The notes below the pieces were generated by a model that saw only the letters and a program-made list of their open reading frames with translations, ran no database searches and had not been told where the DNA came from. Position numbers and translations under genes: made by a program. Positions 49,329 to 62,200 of a stretch of DNA of 64,000 bases are shown piece by piece. Positions within the stretch are counted from its first letter, which is position 1, and each line of letters starts with the position of its first letter. Source of the DNA: Naegleria gruberi. Taxonomy: Eukaryota. The stretch is from the NCBI GenBank assembly GCA_000004985.1, contig GG738889.1; one strand, 5' to 3'.

Positions 49329-52300
49329 ATGAGTCAACTTGGAGAGGATTCTTTTCCTGCTGCTAATGAAGGCGATTACTTGCCGATCATTAAACCCTCA
49401 ACCGATAGGAGAGATTATAAAATTATAAAATTGGCTAATGAATTGGAAATAATTTTGTGTCATGATCCTGAGGCTTTAATTGCCTCCGCAGCTATGAATG
49501 TAAAAGGTAATTAGAAATTTAATAACATGTTTTGGAGTGATGATGATGGTGATGGTGGTGGAATGTAATAGTTGGTCATATGAGTGATCCGAGTGATTTT
49601 CCAGGTATGGCCCACTTTGTTGAGCACATGACCTTTATTTCGAGTAAAAAGTATCCAATCGAGGGTGAATATAAGGATTTTCTGAAGAAACGTGGAGGAG
49701 CAACCAATGCATCGACCTCCGCTGAAAAGACAACCTATTATTTTACAATATCGAATGATTATTTGGAAGAAGCTTTGGATAGATTTGCTCAATTTTTCAT
49801 TTCTCCAACATTTTCTGAACATCAAATCAATAGAGAAGTCGAGGCAATTAATAGTGAATTTAAAAAGAATTTACAATTGGAAGAAAGAAGACTCTATCAA
49901 TTGATGAAAAATTCGTCAAATCCACTGCATCCATTTAGAAAATTTGGAACTGGAAATACAATTTCATTGAAAACCGAACCTGAAATGAAAAATTTAAACT
50001 CGAGAGAGCACATGATTGAATTTTTTGAAAAATACTATTCTAGTAATCAAATGAAATTATCAATTATTGGAAATTATCCATTTGAAATATTAGAACAATG
50101 GGCAAGAAATTCATTTTCTGAAATACGAAACAATAATATGCAAACATACAAGTATTATCCAAGTTCAGTTGAGCCATTTAACAATGAAAATCTGGCCAGA
50201 TTATACAAATATATTCCAATATCTGACAGTCCTGTTCTCACCATCATGTTCCCCATCAATATTTCATATCCTGTTGAGGAGATGGGAAGAAATATGTACT
50301 ACAAACAAAGCTCGATAACTATGCTCAACAACTTGCTAGGTCATGAAGGTAAAGGATCTCTTTATTCTAAATTTCGAGCTGAAGGACTGGCTCAAAGTGT
50401 AGAGTCATACTATTACAGTTATGGAGGTGTTAGTGATCCAAACACATCTTTTTATTTCCTAATTGTTAAAGTCGAGTTGACAAAAAAGGGAGAAGATAAA
50501 TGGCAATCAATGATAGAGGATATTTTCGAATATATCAGCATGTTGAAAAAGGATGGAATACCAAAATACTTTTTTGATGAACTTAGTCAAATGAAAAAGC
50601 TAGCCTTTGAGAATGCTCAGTTTACCTCCACCCATGCCTCTAATTTGGCATCGAGTCTTCAACTTCACCTTCCACATGAAGTCATATCTGCTAACTATCT
50701 TATTTATGAGTTGGATGAGGTTGATATTTCAAATGTGTTAGGACAATTACATGCAGAAAATATGAACATTTACATTTGTAGCAAGTCCTTTGCACAAGAT
50801 GAATTGAAACATACAGAGAGATGGTATGATATCAAGTACTCTACAGATAGATTGGATTTTGATTTTCTGAATTTATTAAAGATGAGTAAGATTAATTGCT
50901 CCAAAGAGTTACACCTTCCACCACAGAATATATATGTGCCTTATAATTTGGAACTTGTGGAGGAAGAATCTACCGTATATCCTGAAAAGATTGTAGATGC
51001 TGACACTATTCGAACTTGGTTCAAGAAGGATGATTACTTTAAAACTCCAAGAGGTGACATTATTGCTAACATTATCGTACCACAAAGCTATTCAGATCCA
51101 TCCAATGCTGTAATGGTTCAATTATTTTGTGATATGGTACAATATTCATTGAATGAAGAGTTATACATGATCAAACTTGCAAAAATTTCCACTGAAATTG
51201 AAATGAACAAGAGAGGTTTAGCGATTTCAACATCAGGTTTCAGTAATCATTTGGAAGATGTCATTTATGTAATGTTAAGAGAAATTGTGCACATGTTCGA
51301 TAATGTTGATACATGTTTTACTGAAAAAATGTTTGATTACATCAAGGAAAATAATGTTAGGTATTATCAGAACCAAAAGTTTAAGAGACAACCATATCAA
51401 TTTGCTAGTTCAGAATACATCAATTTCTCTTTGAGGGCATTTGATTATTCATATGAGGAGTTTGCGAATGCTTTAGAAAAAATTACACTGGAGCAATTCA
51501 AAGGATTTGTTAAATTTTGGAGTTTGACAATGACAGTTGAGTGTCTTATTCATGGTAACTTTAAAAAGGATTTGGCAATGAGACTATCTGATAATATAAC
51601 TAGAATTTTATTTGAAGAAAGAAACAAAAGACCAATGACGCCTCTCCCTTGTCAGGATTTACTTACCAATGTAGCTATTTATCCACCGAATAAGGATCTT
51701 GCTTTAGTAATTCCAAATCCAAATGAAACGAACGAAAATAGTGCAATTCTTTCCTGTTTCCATATTGGCCCGAGATGTATGAGGATGGATTGCATTTTGG
51801 AGCTTTTTGCACAAGTATCAAGTAGCAAATATTTCCAATATATGAGAACAGAAAATCAATTTGGATACATTGTTAGCAGCTATCAACAAATGATCCACAA
51901 TGCCTCCTTCTTTGCTTGTGTAGTTCAAACAGTTAAAGATGATTTGTATCACATCTTCCATGAGAATGATTTATTCTTTGAAAAATTTGGTAACCATTTG
52001 GAGGAAATTACAGATGAAAAGTTTACCGAAATTATTGAATCAATCATTTCCAAAAACTTGGAAAAAGAAAAGACAATGGCTCAACGATCCTCTCGATACG
52101 ATATTGAAATATACAGAAAGCAATACAGATTTGATAGATACCAACTGAAAGCTGAGGAATTTAAAACAATAACCAAGGATGATCTCATTAACTTTTATAG
52201 AGATTATATTTTGAAAAGTGGAAAGAATTTTGCAAGGGCTAGCTTTATTGTAACAAAGAAGGATTTGATTATTACATTCCCAGAAGAGAAAAACATTGAG

Positions 52301-52366
52301 CTCGTCAGAAATAAGGAAAATTTCAAACTAGGCCTATCATATCATCCACATTTCATTTATTATTGA
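49329..52366 (+). CDS. M16A zinc metalloendopeptidase (insulin-degrading enzyme / insulysin-like), 2 exons
   Basis: Inverzincin motif HFVEH...E. After removal of the 65-nt intron at 49507-49571 (GTAATTAG...GTAATAG), SAAMNVKVGHMSDPSDFPGMAHFVEHM aligns with IDE [27 protein letters not shown]. Four M16 domains follow. The stop codon is TGA. Confidence 0.85.
49507..49571 (+). other. 65-nt spliceosomal intron
   Basis: GTAATTAGAAATTT...GGAATGTAATAG. Splicing recreates the conserved IDE N-terminal active-site region. Confidence 0.75.
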
Positions 52367-56554: not shown

Positions 56555-57756
56555 TTATGCATCACCAAGAATAGGTGTGTTTGCAAATTTATATCTGGTT
56601 CCTGTATGACGTTTCTTAATACTAATATATGAATCCAGGTTATCCTTGAAGGTTAGTATGATTTGGTTCATTAAGAAATTACAGAATGGAGATTGTACAG
56701 GTTTAGTTGAATGGGATTTACCTTTATGCTCCGCAATAGATCGAAAGTATGTTTGTTTGTCAGCATTTTCAATGATAGTGATTGGATATTTACCCCTCAA
56801 CAAGACATAGTTCATTAATAATCTAGATATTCTTCCATTCCCATCTTTGAATGGATGAATTTGAACAAAATTGTAATGGATAAGGCAAGCTTGTTTGATT
56901 GGATGGGAATTCATGAATGATGCAGAATTAACATATTGAATAAACTTCCTCATGAGACCTGGAACTTCATTAAAATCAGCTAACAACACCTTTTCAAAGC
57001 CAATTGCAACATTGACTTTTCGGTACGCTCCATTTTCTCTTAATAAATACATCATTAGAGTGATGCATTTGTTGAATGTTTTCCTCACTTAATGTTTCAT
57101 TTTGTTCAATATATTTAAGGATATAATCAAATGCAGTTTTGTGATTCATTACTTCCAAAAATTGTATATATGAAGTTTCTTTGGCAGCAACCTCAGAAAG
57201 TATTTGACTTGTTTGAGAAAATGAAGCAGTGCAACCTTCAATGGCATTTCCATGGTAAATAAATCTTGCCAGAGTGTCATTGGCAAGGATTTCTTTCATA
57301 TCAAAGTTAAAGCTCTGGGACAAATCTTCAACAACAGCTAAATCATTTTCATCTTAAACCAATAAGAAATAAGAAAAAGTAAAGCCTACCCAATTCAATT
57401 TCTGAAGGATGTTGAAACAAACTGGCATAACCTTGATATATTGCACCATCCTCAACCAATTCATAAAAATTGGAAGTACTTCTAAACGGTTCGTACAGCT
57501 TTTTCATCTCTTCTTCTCTCCAAGTCTCTGCCTCATAAAATAGTTTAAATTGGTTCCTTTGTTTCAGTAGCTTGTCGGAATCAACATATTCCTGAGTACT
57601 TTCGTAAGTATAAAACACAACAATGCTTAATAAAAGTATCACGACCACTCCACAAATATACAACACAATATTATCTTTTCGAATTGTTTTCTTGGTTTTT
57701 GGTACCGAAGTTTTCTTGTAGTTTGTTTTCCTTACTATATTTCCCTTGCTTATCAT
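56555..57756 (-). CDS. Fic-domain protein with N-terminal TM anchor; frame disrupted in the last exon (possible pseudogene or sequence error)
   Basis: Exon 1 (57390-57756) carries the TM anchor. A 37-nt intron (GTAGGC...TTTAAG) leads to exon 2 (from 57352), which has the Fic N-terminal helix FIYHGNAIEG...IQQMHH. The core motif HPFKDGNGRISRLLMNYVL and the upstream GAYRKVNVAIG lie in the +1 frame from ~57035 onward. No intron of sensible size joins the two frames. Confidence 0.55.
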
Positions 57757-59265: not shown

Positions 59266-62200
59266 CTAAAAGCCAAATGGTTTCATGTAAGAAATGATAA
59301 GATTAATATTATCTAAGAAATTAGCTGATAATTCATCGATCAACTGTTTGAATGGTCCAAATAAGTTCTTATTACGCAGATATTCAGCTAACTCATTGTA
59401 AATCATTCTCTCCATCAATATTATTAAACCTAATACTCTTTGGAAAGATTTAGGATAATAGTGGCTTCTTTCTAAATGTCCCTCATTATCCACATAAATT
59501 TTGGAAGGAGATGAACTCTCGAAAACATGTCCAATAAAAGCATCAAATGCTGCTGTCTGCAAGAGAATATCTTTGAATGATTGAGATTTTGATGTTGTAA
59601 AGTCAGAGAGCTTAGAATTTTTACCCCCAACTCTTTGTGAGTGAATTGGAGAAACAAGACTAAACCCTTTTCCAAAAGCAGTGGGGAAATTTCTAACCCT
59701 ACGATTTGTGTAAGGAACATTAATCCAAAATCTGTTCACATCAATAAAACTGTTGATAATCAAGTTAAATAATTGATCTAATGGTGAATATTCCAATTCC
59801 AATACTTCCCCACTCTTGAACTGCAGTATTACATTGGATATGGAAAACTTTTGAACAGAAGGAATAACTGTCATTACCTCATCATGCATGCTGTAAAATG
59901 GTATGAATAGTGGTTTGGAAAATTCACCGTTCATACCTCCCGTAGTTAATTTCTCAATTGAGTCCAAAAAGAGACATTGATTTTGAATGATTTCCTTTTC
60001 CTCAGTATTAATCATTGACATGTATTGGGAAAGTATAAATTTGCTGATTGGATGTCGATGTGATTCCACTTTCAGCAACCAGAAAAATTGATTTCCAATA
60101 ACTTTGGATGTAAGAGATCTTCTTACAAGATATTGAGTCAGTACTCCATTAACACTATCAAACTTGATACAATTTGTGAGATAAGGTAGCAATACCAAAA
60201 AATCTTCATCAGTGGTATCTTGCAGCATTTCTGTAATTGTAAGTTTGATAAAAACACTGTTGGAAACACTTTCTGATAGAATTCTCAATAGTTTCATCAC
60301 GTGTTGTGGTTTTTTCCATTTAGATACATATTGTTTGGCCAAATATACAGCCCATGGATTTTGAAATGGTATACTTCTCAAAAATGGTACAATCTTGTCT
60401 GGATTACTAATGTTAACATCCTTTTGTTTCCATTCCTTCATAGAAGGTAAATCATTCAATGTTAAGTTCATTGGTTCAACTCTATTAAAAAGAACAATTT
60501 GTGTTTCCTCATAAACTTCCAAAGATTCTTTAAACTTCAGTGGTGGTATTTTCTCTATTTCATACATGACCGAATGCTCATAATTCTCGAATGAAACGTC
60601 AACAGAAAATGTTGTATCAATACCGTCTATTGTGGTATCTTTGGAAAATAATTTAACATTTCCTTGTTGTAGCTCCAAATTTGAATCGAAAACTGGGCAT
60701 TCTACTTTTGACACGTATTTTCTTTTAGTTATTCCAGTAATAGGGTTTACCATTAAGCAGAATAGTGTTAATTCTATCATTCCATCACAAGAAAGGTCTG
60801 ATATACGAATGTTATCAAAACTAATTTCCTCATTCCATTCCAAACAATCCGAATGTGGTATACACTTGGTATATTTTCTCTCACTGGTCTCGTTGCTATA
60901 TATTTTGCATTCAATTACAAAAGAAAGAGTACTGAAAGGTTTGAAGTCTGTGTGAAAGTATGATATTCCCTGTATACCCTTGATGAAAATTTTCAGATTC
61001 TTATCAAAATCGAAAGAGCAAATGGCACCGTCCTTCTTTGCAATGTCAGTAGTTTGAGTGATTAAAGAATTTAAAAACTTGAAATATGGTTCAACATCAT
61101 TTTCGTGTTCAATATTCATCTTGGTTGGTGCACAATCAACCTCTATATTTTTCTTCGATCCTAAAGAAAGTAAAAGTCCTCTTTCAACATTCTTCATCAA
61201 GTTGATTTTGACAATTAAAGTTTTAAGGGAAGGTAAACCTTCTAAAATTGGTATGATACCCTCAGTCAAAGGGTTGGCAGAAATATTAAGCCTTGTTAAG
61301 TTTTTCCATTCACATTCACTCATAAGCTCTGTAAAATTCCTCGTATCCATATTAATTGAAGAAATATCCAGAGAGGTCAACCCTTCCAGTTTACAAATTT
61401 TGGATATTAATCCTTTTCCAAATGAATGGCCATTTACAGTTAAACATGTCAGGTGGAGTGGCTTGATTTCATTTGAACTGTAGATATTTTCCCAAAAACG
61501 TTTGCTCATATTATTTAAAGTAAGTGATTTTAGATTTTTGAATTCACACTTTTCAAAATTCTCAAATCCATTAGTTTGCACATCATCAAGAGCCAAATAC
61601 TCCAAGTTTTCTGAAAAGTTTTCAATATTAGTATAGCAGTGTGTTATGGAGAGTTTTTTCAATCCCAAAGGAAGAATGGATGTTTCTATTGTGATATTTC
61701 CTTCTAAATCTAATGATTCGAGATTTTCAAAATCCAACCTGGGAAGAGGTGATATTCTTTCAAAACGATCACTGTATATAGCCAGTGATCTAATTTGTGG
61801 TTTGATAGAAAGCATCTTATCTACCAAATATGAAGTATATGCAAAATCAACTTTCAACTCGACAAGATTAGGTAGTCTTTCCCTGCTCTCTAACAAATAT
61901 TGATAATCATATTTGACGTATATTCTCTAACATCCAAAGACTTTAACTTTGAAAATTTGTCAATAATTAACTTTAAACCACTCGAGCTGAATTCATTTCT
62001 TCTCAAACTCAAATATTCCAAAGCATTTGCATTCATGGAAGAACACACTCTTTCAATCTCACTATCTGTTAAATGACAACCAACAGCCGAAAACTTTTTA
62101 ATAGAAAAATAATAATCATCAGCCTGATGATCAAGTAATAACTTAGAAAATTCCTGTTTTGAAGTAAACTTCAATCGGAGATGAACTAATCTTCTCACAA

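What the first reader, a model, noticed from the sequence alone, without database searches (positions are those of the whole stretch)
57020..57050. Fic gene: the conserved N-terminal helix and the HPFxDGNGR core are in different frames, separated by a 1-nt shift in an A-run
Frame B encodes ...FIYHGNAIEG...EENIQQMHHSNDVFIKRKW and then hits a stop at 56994. Frame C, offset by 1 nt, encodes ...LLRENGAYRKVNVAIG...HPFKDGNGRISRLLMNYVL. Both halves match Fic in the correct order, so the switch must occur within ~57030-57042 (minus-strand aagagaaaatgg). The only GT...AG pairs there would make 12- or 14-nt introns with the wrong length class, so splicing cannot explain the shift. The likely explanations are a homopolymer sequencing or assembly error, a recent pseudogenising indel, or, less likely, programmed +1 frameshifting.
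Basis: seen in the sequence. Interest (0 to 1): 0.5.

Follow-up and report, generated by a model that had tools for sequence, protein, structure and literature searches.

The report
Frame-broken FICD-like Fic gene in Naegleria
A membrane-anchored Fic (AMP-transferase) gene of the amoeba Naegleria gruberi has its reading frame broken in the middle of a core helix, most likely by a real recent inactivating indel or else by a sequencing error, so it is an ordinary finding.

Summary
The window is Naegleria gruberi nuclear DNA. On the minus strand at 57756-55555 lies a two-exon gene for a membrane-anchored Fic enzyme that resembles human FICD. The core observation holds. The N-terminal half, with the inhibitory helix HGNAIEGC, is in one frame. 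The C-terminal half, with GAYR and HPFKDGNGRISR, is in the frame one base further on. Both halves match a Fic family profile on their own and in the right order.

The break is not in the A-run at 57030-57042. Family-profile scoring and the closest relatives place it about 20 nt upstream, at CAT CAC T|CTA ATG (57063-57058). There N. gruberi has 70 nt where intact relatives have 72 or 69.

An in-frame 52-nt GT..AG candidate (57088-57037) exists, but I reject it. It deletes 17 conserved residues, costs 34 bits and ends in GAG.

The reference annotation keeps only the last 165 residues. A Naegleria-like metagenomic relative carries an independent 16-nt frame-breaking deletion 12 codons downstream. 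No N. fowleri or N. lovaniensis orthologue appeared.

My estimates:
- Recent real lesion (pseudogene or null allele): about 0.55.
- Assembly error: about 0.33.
- Recoding or splicing: a few percent.

No independent reads were available, so the first two cannot be separated here.

The parts
57390..57756 (-). Exon 1. It starts at the first ATG after an upstream stop, codes residues 1-122 plus one base, and includes the membrane anchor.
   Evidence: ORF list and translation. Homologous N-termini with 'EAE.WR..E' are present in Willaertia magna P0149, L003 and P0153.
57604..57669 (-). Single hydrophobic transmembrane helix IVLYICGVVVILLLSIVVFYTY (residues 30-51).
   Evidence: Sequence and coordinates. 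AlphaFold2 predicts helix 27-53. Relatives have the same N-terminal hydrophobic stretch.
57338..57389 (-). Intron 1: 52 nt, GTAGGC...TTTAG, phase 1.
   Evidence: It joins exon 1 to frame B in frame. A short GT..AG element sits at the same position and phase in L003 (932-965, GTAAGT..CAG) and W. magna (L002 3386-3421, GTAAGT..TTTAG). Its length and ends fit other introns inferred in the window.
57060..57337 (-). Exon 2, part read in frame B, through ...LSEENIQQMHH.
   Evidence: It scores 73.9 bits against the family profile, positions 53-136. It aligns to human FICD continuously with the frame-C part.
57231..57254 (-). Inhibitory-helix motif HGNAIEGC. The Glu and Gly of (S/T)xxxE(G/N) are present; the S/T position is Gly.
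   Evidence: Conserved-column table and coordinates.
57058..57063 (-). Best-supported position of the frame break (CAT CAC T|CTA ATG): one base too many, or two too few.
   Evidence: Repair scan against the family profile gives 248.6-249.1 bits here, 239-240 bits in the A-run. From the conserved His to the Lys of KVLLAD there are 72 nt in W. magna, 69 in L001, 70 in N. gruberi and 56 in L003 (note). The break lies inside AlphaFold2 helix 207-218.
57046..57071 (-). Quasi-palindrome AAATGCATCA-CTCTAA-TGATGTATTT, with the break in its loop.
   Evidence: RNA fold of 57075-56960 has a z-score of -2.46, and 3 of 200 shuffles fold as well. It is not conserved in L003.
56555..57058 (-). Exon 2, part read in frame C: LMMYLLRENGAYRKVNVAIG...HPFKDGNGR... 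through the stop at 56557-56555.
   Evidence: It scores 162.9 bits against the family profile, positions 143-278, and 71.5 bits against Pfam Fic.
56822..56857 (-). Catalytic Fic motif HPFKDGNGRISR, intact.
   Evidence: It is the only H.F..GNGR in the window.
56555..57052 (-). The existing reference gene model NAEGRDRAFT_71218 (XP_002673687.1 / EFC40943.1, 165 aa). It covers the C-terminal fragment only, starting from an internal ATG.
   Evidence: P0148 is 100% identical to residues 218-382 of the repaired model.
56994..56996 (-). Stop codon that ends frame B, 21 codons after the break.
57037..57088 (-). Rejected candidate intron: 52 nt, GTGAGG...AAGAG, frame-restoring.
   Evidence: It scores 214.6 bits against about 249 for a point repair. 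The Pfam match loses profile positions 2-19. It has a GAG acceptor and a GTGAGG donor, neither seen among the inferred window introns. The stretch is continuous coding sequence in W. magna, L001 and L003.

Best explanation
This is a nuclear gene of Naegleria gruberi for a type-II membrane-anchored, FICD-like Fic enzyme, a presumed protein AMP-transferase/de-AMPylase. The gene has two exons and one 52-nt intron.

In the reference sequence the reading frame is broken once, at CAT CAC T|CTA ATG (57063-57058). That point lies inside the core helix just before the flap hairpin. Relative to the closest relatives the net change is two missing bases, or equivalently one extra base.

I think the lesion is most likely real and recent. 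The gene would then be a young unitary pseudogene, or a null allele in a heterozygous polyploid strain. Translation from the true start would end 21 codons after the break. The product would carry the anchor and inhibitory helix but no active site.

Shown:
- The gene structure.
- The position and size of the break.
- Intactness of every other feature.
- Intact orthologues elsewhere.
- An independent lesion in a close relative.

Inferred:
- That the break exists in the organism rather than only in the assembly.
- The biochemical function.
For: - Organism: a neighbouring ORF is 100% identical to an N. gruberi protein.
- Both halves are significant and colinear.
- The break is mapped by a family-profile scan and by codon bookkeeping against W. 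magna, L001 and L003.
- The site is not a homopolymer.
- The closest relative found is metagenome contig L003, 52% identical in the C-terminal half, with the same intron position. It carries its own 16-nt frame-breaking deletion 12 codons downstream, which removes the conserved G-x-Y/F-R. That cannot be a base-calling slip, so it shows decay of this gene in the Naegleria clade.
- An exhaustive HMMER search of 1.84 billion representatives found W. magna (38% identical, 381 aa, intact) as the best full-length relative. The named top hits I looked up were W. magna, Artemia, Trimastix, chytrid fungi and bacterial or archaeal genomes, none from N. fowleri or N. lovaniensis. Thirteen proteomes of those two species are public (PMC9928731).
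- The reference annotation could only model a 165-aa fragment.
Against: - Apart from the single break the gene is flawless. There is no other stop in 382 codons. The catalytic and inhibitory motifs are intact, and the intron ends are typical.
- N. gruberi departs from family-conserved columns no more than intact relatives do: 9 of 48, against 11 for W. magna. A consensus error in the single available draft assembly would look exactly like this.
- No independent N. gruberi DNA or RNA sequence of this locus could be found, so the break has not been verified.
- The absence of N. fowleri and N. lovaniensis orthologues rests on annotated proteins, not on their genomes.
Confidence: 0.55

Rival explanations
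1. Sequencing or assembly error. The organism has an intact 382- or 383-codon gene, and the reference consensus has one spurious base, or lacks two, at 57063-57058.
For: - There is a single lesion in an otherwise perfectly conserved gene with all functional motifs intact.
- Only one N. gruberi genome assembly is public (PMC9928731).
- The site sits in the loop of a 10-bp quasi-palindrome that could disturb base calling.
Against: - The site is not a homopolymer, and the best-fitting change relative to the two closest relatives is a 2-nt deficit.
- A close relative has an unquestionably real deletion in the same gene.
- No N. fowleri or N. lovaniensis orthologue was found, so loss of the gene is plausible in this genus.
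Confidence: 0.33
2. Programmed +1 ribosomal frameshifting, or another form of recoding, yields a full-length enzyme from the broken template.
For: - Two Naegleria-clade genes, N. gruberi and L003, are each broken once, within 12 codons of each other, and are otherwise intact. By my rough estimate, two random lesions in about 1100 nt would fall this close about 8% of the time.
- A local hairpin spans the N. gruberi site.
Against: - The two breaks differ in direction (+1 against -1) and in position.
- The L003 break removes five or six conserved residues, so it is not a slip.
- CAC-UCU-A and CAU-CAC-U allow no tRNA re-pairing in the +1 frame. That is my reading of the sequence.
- There is no stop or obviously rare codon at the site; the 0-frame stop is 21 codons away.
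- Intact W. magna and L001 genes have no shift.
- The L003 region shows no unusual RNA structure.
Confidence: 0.04
3. A 52-nt spliceosomal intron (57088-57037, GT..AG) is removed and restores the frame. The product is a shorter protein, ...IEQNETL-K-NGAYRK....
For: It has GT..AG ends, restores the frame, and has the same length as intron 1 and as other introns in the window, which run 39-77 nt.
Against: - It would remove 17 residues of a core helix that are conserved and continuously coded in all relatives.
- The family score falls to 214.6 bits from about 249. The Pfam match is cut from positions 2-93 to 20-93.
- The GAG acceptor and GTGAGG donor are unlike the (A/T)TAG acceptors and GTAAGT/GTAGGT donors inferred elsewhere in the window.
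- Relatives have no intron there.
Confidence: 0.02
4. The annotated 165-aa product, made from the internal ATG at 57052, is a functional truncated Fic protein.
For: It is the existing gene model and it keeps the catalytic motif.
Against: It lacks the inhibitory helix and three or four helices of the Fic core that AlphaFold2 predicts with pLDDT above 90 and that every homologue has. It would also need its own promoter or translational re-initiation.
Confidence: 0.03

Closest known systems
Human FICD (HYPE) and C. elegans FIC-1, the ER-resident AMPylase/de-AMPylase of BiP
   Same: - Best sequence match among solved structures (E 1.4e-23, residues 139-323).
- Best fold match for the repaired model (4u04, E 7e-16; C. 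elegans 5jj6).
- N-terminal single transmembrane helix.
- Inhibitory helix with the regulatory Glu.
- Canonical HPFxDGNGRxxR motif.
   Different: - No TPR repeats detected between the anchor and the Fic domain.
- About 28% identity only.
- Ser/Thr of the inhibitory motif replaced by Gly, and the following Asn by Cys.
- The reading frame is broken in the reference sequence.
Willaertia magna KAL9653107.1 and other protist anchored Fic proteins (Logan contig P0153, Trimastix marina P0160)
   Same: Same length class (355-429 aa). Same N-terminal anchor, 'EAE.WR..E..Y' segment and Fic core. The intron-1 position is shared with W. magna and L003.
   Different: These genes are uninterrupted across the break region. 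P0153 has lost the catalytic His (IQPFSSGNGR).
Unitary pseudogenes with a single young frameshift, and the consensus indel errors of draft assemblies that mimic them
   Same: One frame-breaking indel in an otherwise intact, conserved gene. The annotation pipeline called only the longest downstream ORF.
   Different: Nothing distinguishes this case from either class with the data at hand.
Programmed +1 frameshift genes (antizyme, yeast Ty1/ABP140/EST3, Euplotes)
   Same: A +1 change of frame is needed to make the full-length product.
   Different: There is no slippery or hungry-codon context and no stop at the shift site. The shift is not conserved in orthologues.

Membership tests
Fic/Fido domain family (Pfam PF02661) | Significant match to the family profile. 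| tested here: met
   71.5 bits for frame C alone. 80.8 bits over profile positions 2-93 for the repaired protein. The curated cut-off is 24 bits.
Fic/Fido domain family (Pfam PF02661) | Catalytic motif HxFx(D/E)GNGRxxR. | tested here: met
   HPFKDGNGRISR at 56857-56822.
Fic/Fido domain family (Pfam PF02661) | The domain is encoded by one continuous reading frame. | tested here: not met
   Profile positions 2-18 are in frame B and 19-93 in frame C.
FICD/HYPE-type eukaryotic Fic enzymes | N-terminal single-pass membrane anchor. | tested here: met
   A 22-residue hydrophobic stretch at residues 30-51, and AlphaFold2 helix 27-53. The topology itself was not tested.
FICD/HYPE-type eukaryotic Fic enzymes | Two TPR motifs between the anchor and the Fic domain. 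| tested here: not met
   No TPR family is reported at E up to 1 for the repaired protein, W. magna or P0153. The region is helical but of low confidence in the model.
FICD/HYPE-type eukaryotic Fic enzymes | Auto-inhibitory helix (S/T)xxxE(G/N). | tested here: inconclusive
   The sequence is GNAIEG. Glu156 and Gly157 are present, but the S/T position is Gly, which none of the 148 homologues has.
FICD/HYPE-type eukaryotic Fic enzymes | AMPylation/de-AMPylation of BiP in the ER. | not testable with these tools
   This needs biochemistry.
Programmed +1 ribosomal frameshift site | The frame change is conserved in orthologues. | tested here: not met
   W. magna and L001 are continuous. L003 is broken elsewhere and in the opposite direction.
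Programmed +1 ribosomal frameshift site | A shift-prone codon context, with re-pairing in +1 or a stop/rare codon in the A site. | tested here: not met
   The sequence CAU CAC UCU AAU offers no +1 re-pairing. The 0-frame stop is 21 codons downstream.
Spliceosomal intron (candidate 57088-57037) | GT..AG ends, species-typical length, restores the frame. | tested here: met
   It is 52 nt and in frame. Introns in the window run 39-77 nt.
Spliceosomal intron (candidate 57088-57037) | The removed sequence is non-coding and has species-typical splice signals. | tested here: not met
   Removing it costs 34 bits of family score. Its GAG acceptor and GTGAGG donor are atypical.
Unitary pseudogene | A disabling lesion is present in the genome and confirmed independently of the assembly. 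| not testable with these tools
   No other N. gruberi sequence of the locus is in the searchable collections.
Unitary pseudogene | Signs of relaxed constraint beyond the lesion. | tested here: inconclusive
   N. gruberi deviates at 9 of 48 conserved columns, within the range of intact relatives. Two substitutions in the inhibitory motif are unique to it.

The most novel reading that the evidence does not exclude
The two single breaks, in N. gruberi and in the Naegleria-like contig L003, fall within 12 codons of each other at the helix-flap junction, and both genes are otherwise intact. They might not be independent accidents. They could mark a site where this clade switches the enzyme off, or recodes it, by frameshifting, transcript-level correction, or recurrent mutation at a hotspot that keeps a potentially toxic AMPylase silent.
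Probability: 0.04. Interest if true: 0.6.

Novelty: new member of a known kind. Interest (0 to 1): 0.18.

Why it matters
The main value is for annotation.
- The reference model NAEGRDRAFT_71218 is a 165-residue fragment of a 382-residue, two-exon, membrane-anchored FICD-like gene. Its N-terminal half is not annotated.
- The work defines a small family of anchored, TPR-less Fic proteins in protists: Naegleria, Willaertia, an unnamed Logan assembly, and Trimastix.
- It suggests the gene is being lost in the genus Naegleria.
- If the break proves to be an assembly error, N. gruberi has an intact FICD-like enzyme. That would bear on how old ER AMPylation of chaperones is in eukaryotes.

None of this would surprise a specialist.

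Tried and rejected
- Exact look-ups. I tried the neighbouring protein, the annotated fragment, the ORF pieces and five guessed intact versions. None is in the contig or protein collections apart from the NCBI fragment itself. No independent N. gruberi copy could be examined.
- First word-indexed homologue search. It missed even the 100% identical N. gruberi fragment, so I did not use it as evidence of absence. The exhaustive search and a second query replaced it.
- Two metagenome scans for further Naegleria-clade copies. They gave nothing closer than 28-32% identity, so whether breaks recur in more relatives could not be tested.
- Literature searches on Naegleria Fic/FICD, N. gruberi pseudogenes or frameshifts, and intron statistics. 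Nothing specific to this gene came up. One paper supplied the list of public Naegleria genomes.
- tRNA and Rfam scans of the window. No matches.
- The 12- and 14-nt GT..AG pairs.
- The 52-nt, 61-nt, 73-nt and other in-frame GT..AG candidates. All score 200-215 bits, against about 249 for a point repair.
- dN/dS was not attempted, because the nearest relatives are only 38-52% identical at the protein level.

Full report
**Organism and locus**

The window has about 33% G+C and is densely packed with long ORFs that carry eukaryotic domains. ORF 49580-52366 is 100% identical to 'peptidase [Naegleria gruberi]' on a 348-kb scaffold. The window is therefore N. gruberi nuclear DNA. No tRNA or Rfam family was found.

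**Check of the observation**

On the minus strand, ORF 57323..56994 (frame B) reads ...ARFIYHGNAIEGC...LSEENIQQMHHSNDVFIKRKWSVPKSQCCNWL*. ORF 57088..56555 (frame C, one base further on) reads ...LMMYLLRENGAYRKVNVAIGFEKVLLAD...HPFKDGNGRISRLLMNYVL....

- I built a profile from 148 homologues, leaving N. gruberi out. The frame-B ORF alone scores 73.9 bits on profile positions 53-136. The frame-C ORF scores 162.9 bits on positions 143-278.
- Human FICD aligns continuously across both halves at E 1.4e-23.
- The Pfam Fic domain itself is split. The repaired protein matches profile positions 2-93 at 80.8 bits, whereas frame C alone matches positions 19-93 at 71.5 bits.

The two-frame observation is real and far beyond chance.

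**Gene structure**

- Upstream ORF 57756..57349 supplies the start codon and a 22-residue hydrophobic anchor.
- It joins frame B through a 52-nt GT..AG intron (57389-57338, phase 1).
- The same position and phase carry a 34-nt GTAAGT..CAG intron in metagenome contig L003, and a 36-nt GTAAGT..TTTAG element in Willaertia magna.
- I inferred other introns in the window as the shortest in-frame GT..AG that joins two ORF pieces. They are 39-77 nt long, with GTAAGT or GTAGGT donors and (A/T)TAG acceptors. Intron 1 is therefore typical.

**Position of the break**

I repaired the sequence at every position from 57090 to 56994, by deleting one base or inserting two, and scored each product against the family profile.

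| Repair | Score (bits) |
|---|---|
| At 57063-57058 | 248.6-249.1 |

- Frame C upstream of the A-run reads LMMYLL. This matches LMSTLL in L003 and LMTSLL in W. magna. Frame B reads NDVFIK there.
- I counted nucleotides from the conserved His codon to the Lys codon of KVLLAD. W. magna has 72, the Logan contig L001 has 69, N. gruberi has 70 and L003 has 56.
- N. gruberi is therefore two bases short of its two closest relatives, or one base long relative to L001. The site is CAT CAC T|CTA ATG.
- This is not a homopolymer. It lies in the loop of a 10-bp quasi-palindrome, AAATGCATCA/TGATGTATTT.

**Splicing**

I reject it for four reasons.

- It would remove 17 residues that are conserved and continuously coded in all relatives.
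- The family score falls to 214.6 bits.
- The Pfam match is cut to profile positions 20-93.
- Its GTGAGG donor and GAG acceptor are unlike the window's other introns.

**What the gene encodes**

The break lies inside helix 207-218, just before the flap hairpin.
- The best structural matches are human FICD and C. elegans FIC-1.
- The catalytic motif HPFKDGNGRISR is intact. So are the inhibitory Glu and Gly.
- The S/T of the inhibitory motif is Gly and the following Asn is Cys. None of the 148 homologues has either substitution.
- No TPR repeats are detected.
- The protein works like an anchored, auto-inhibited FICD-type AMP-transferase. It fails the TPR criterion for strict FICD membership. The biochemical function is inferred, not shown.

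**Relatives**

An exhaustive HMMER search returned these top hits.

- The existing N. gruberi model NAEGRDRAFT_71218, 165 aa, which is frame C from an internal ATG. The reference annotation therefore holds only the C-terminal fragment.
- W. magna KAL9653107.1: 381 aa, 38% identical, intact.
- A 355-aa protein on a Logan contig, intact but with IQPFSSGNGR, so the catalytic His is lost.
- Trimastix, Artemia FICD and chytrid fungi.
- Many bacterial and archaeal Fic proteins.

None of the named top hits came from N. fowleri or N. lovaniensis, although 13 proteomes of those species are public (PMC9928731).

The closest relative is metagenome contig L003. Its C-terminal half is 52% identical, and it has the same anchor and the same intron position. 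It is also frame-broken, by a 16-nt deficit 12 codons downstream of the N. gruberi site. That deficit removes the conserved G-x-Y/F-R and shifts the frame in the opposite direction.

**Weighing the explanations**

*A real, recent lesion.* The evidence for it:
- The context is not a homopolymer and the change looks like a 2-nt deficit.
- A deletion in the nearest relative cannot be a base-calling slip.
- No orthologue was seen in the sister species.

Together these suggest the gene is dispensable and decaying in this genus.

*An assembly error.* The evidence for it:
- The gene is otherwise flawless. It deviates at 9 of 48 conserved columns, against 11 for intact W. magna.
- Its splice sites are typical.
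- Only one assembly exists.
- I found no independent N. gruberi DNA or RNA for the locus.

*Programmed +1 frameshifting is unlikely.*
- There is no re-pairing context and no stop at the site.
- Intact orthologues have no shift.
- The L003 break differs in place, direction and nature.

My estimates:

| Explanation | Estimate |
|---|---|
| Real lesion | 0.55 |
| Assembly error | 0.33 |
| All others together | under 0.1 |

**Verdict**

The list of causes was right. The finding is an ordinary frame-broken gene. Its practical yield is a corrected gene model and a small, previously undescribed group of anchored, TPR-less Fic proteins in protists. The only mildly unusual point is that two clade members are broken within 12 codons of each other. 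By my rough estimate this would happen by chance about 8% of the time.

Noticed in passing
L003 1295-1312 (JGI metagenome 3300002220 contig, 1919 nt): This Naegleria-like orthologue has the same anchor and the same intron position. It carries its own frame break: about 16 nt are missing, which removes the conserved G-x-Y/F-R, 12 codons downstream of the N. gruberi break and in the opposite frame direction. An identical 132-aa ORF is also on record from an ENA assembly.
   Followed up: partly
L002 3386-3421 and 4139-4178 (Willaertia magna JBEGDK010000057.1): The W. magna gene model probably reads through a stop-free, in-frame 36-nt GTAAGT..TTTAG intron at the conserved intron-1 position. It also splices out a 40-nt 'intron' near the 3' end. 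The unspliced translation of that stretch (KLCDLILSSVIETMDRYL) is homologous to the N. gruberi C-terminus, so that intron looks spurious.
   Followed up: partly
L001 528-1595 (Logan SRR23962323 contig, protein P0153): This intact, intron-less relative has IQPFSSGNGR in place of HPFxDGNGR and D in place of the inhibitory Glu. It is probably a catalytically dead Fic protein from an unidentified protist.
   Followed up: no
window 57046-57071 (minus strand): A 10-bp quasi-palindrome, AAATGCATCA-CTCTAA-TGATGTATTT, has the frame break in its loop. The 116-nt fold has a z-score of -2.46. It could promote either a real indel or a base-calling artefact. It is absent from relatives.
   Followed up: partly
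window 57231-57254 (minus strand): The inhibitory motif reads HGNAIEGC. Gly at the S/T position and Cys at the usually Asn or Ser position occur in none of the 148 homologues compared.
   Followed up: partly
window 59266-61896 (minus strand): An 876-aa ORF combines N-terminal leucine-rich repeats with PI3K C2 and PIK accessory domains. No kinase domain is detected in this ORF. It may continue through an intron or be an unusual architecture.
   Followed up: no
The word-indexed homologue search with the full repaired protein did not return the 100% identical N. gruberi fragment. A shorter query and the exhaustive search both found it. Absence from a single word-indexed search should not be read as absence from the database.
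   Followed up: yes
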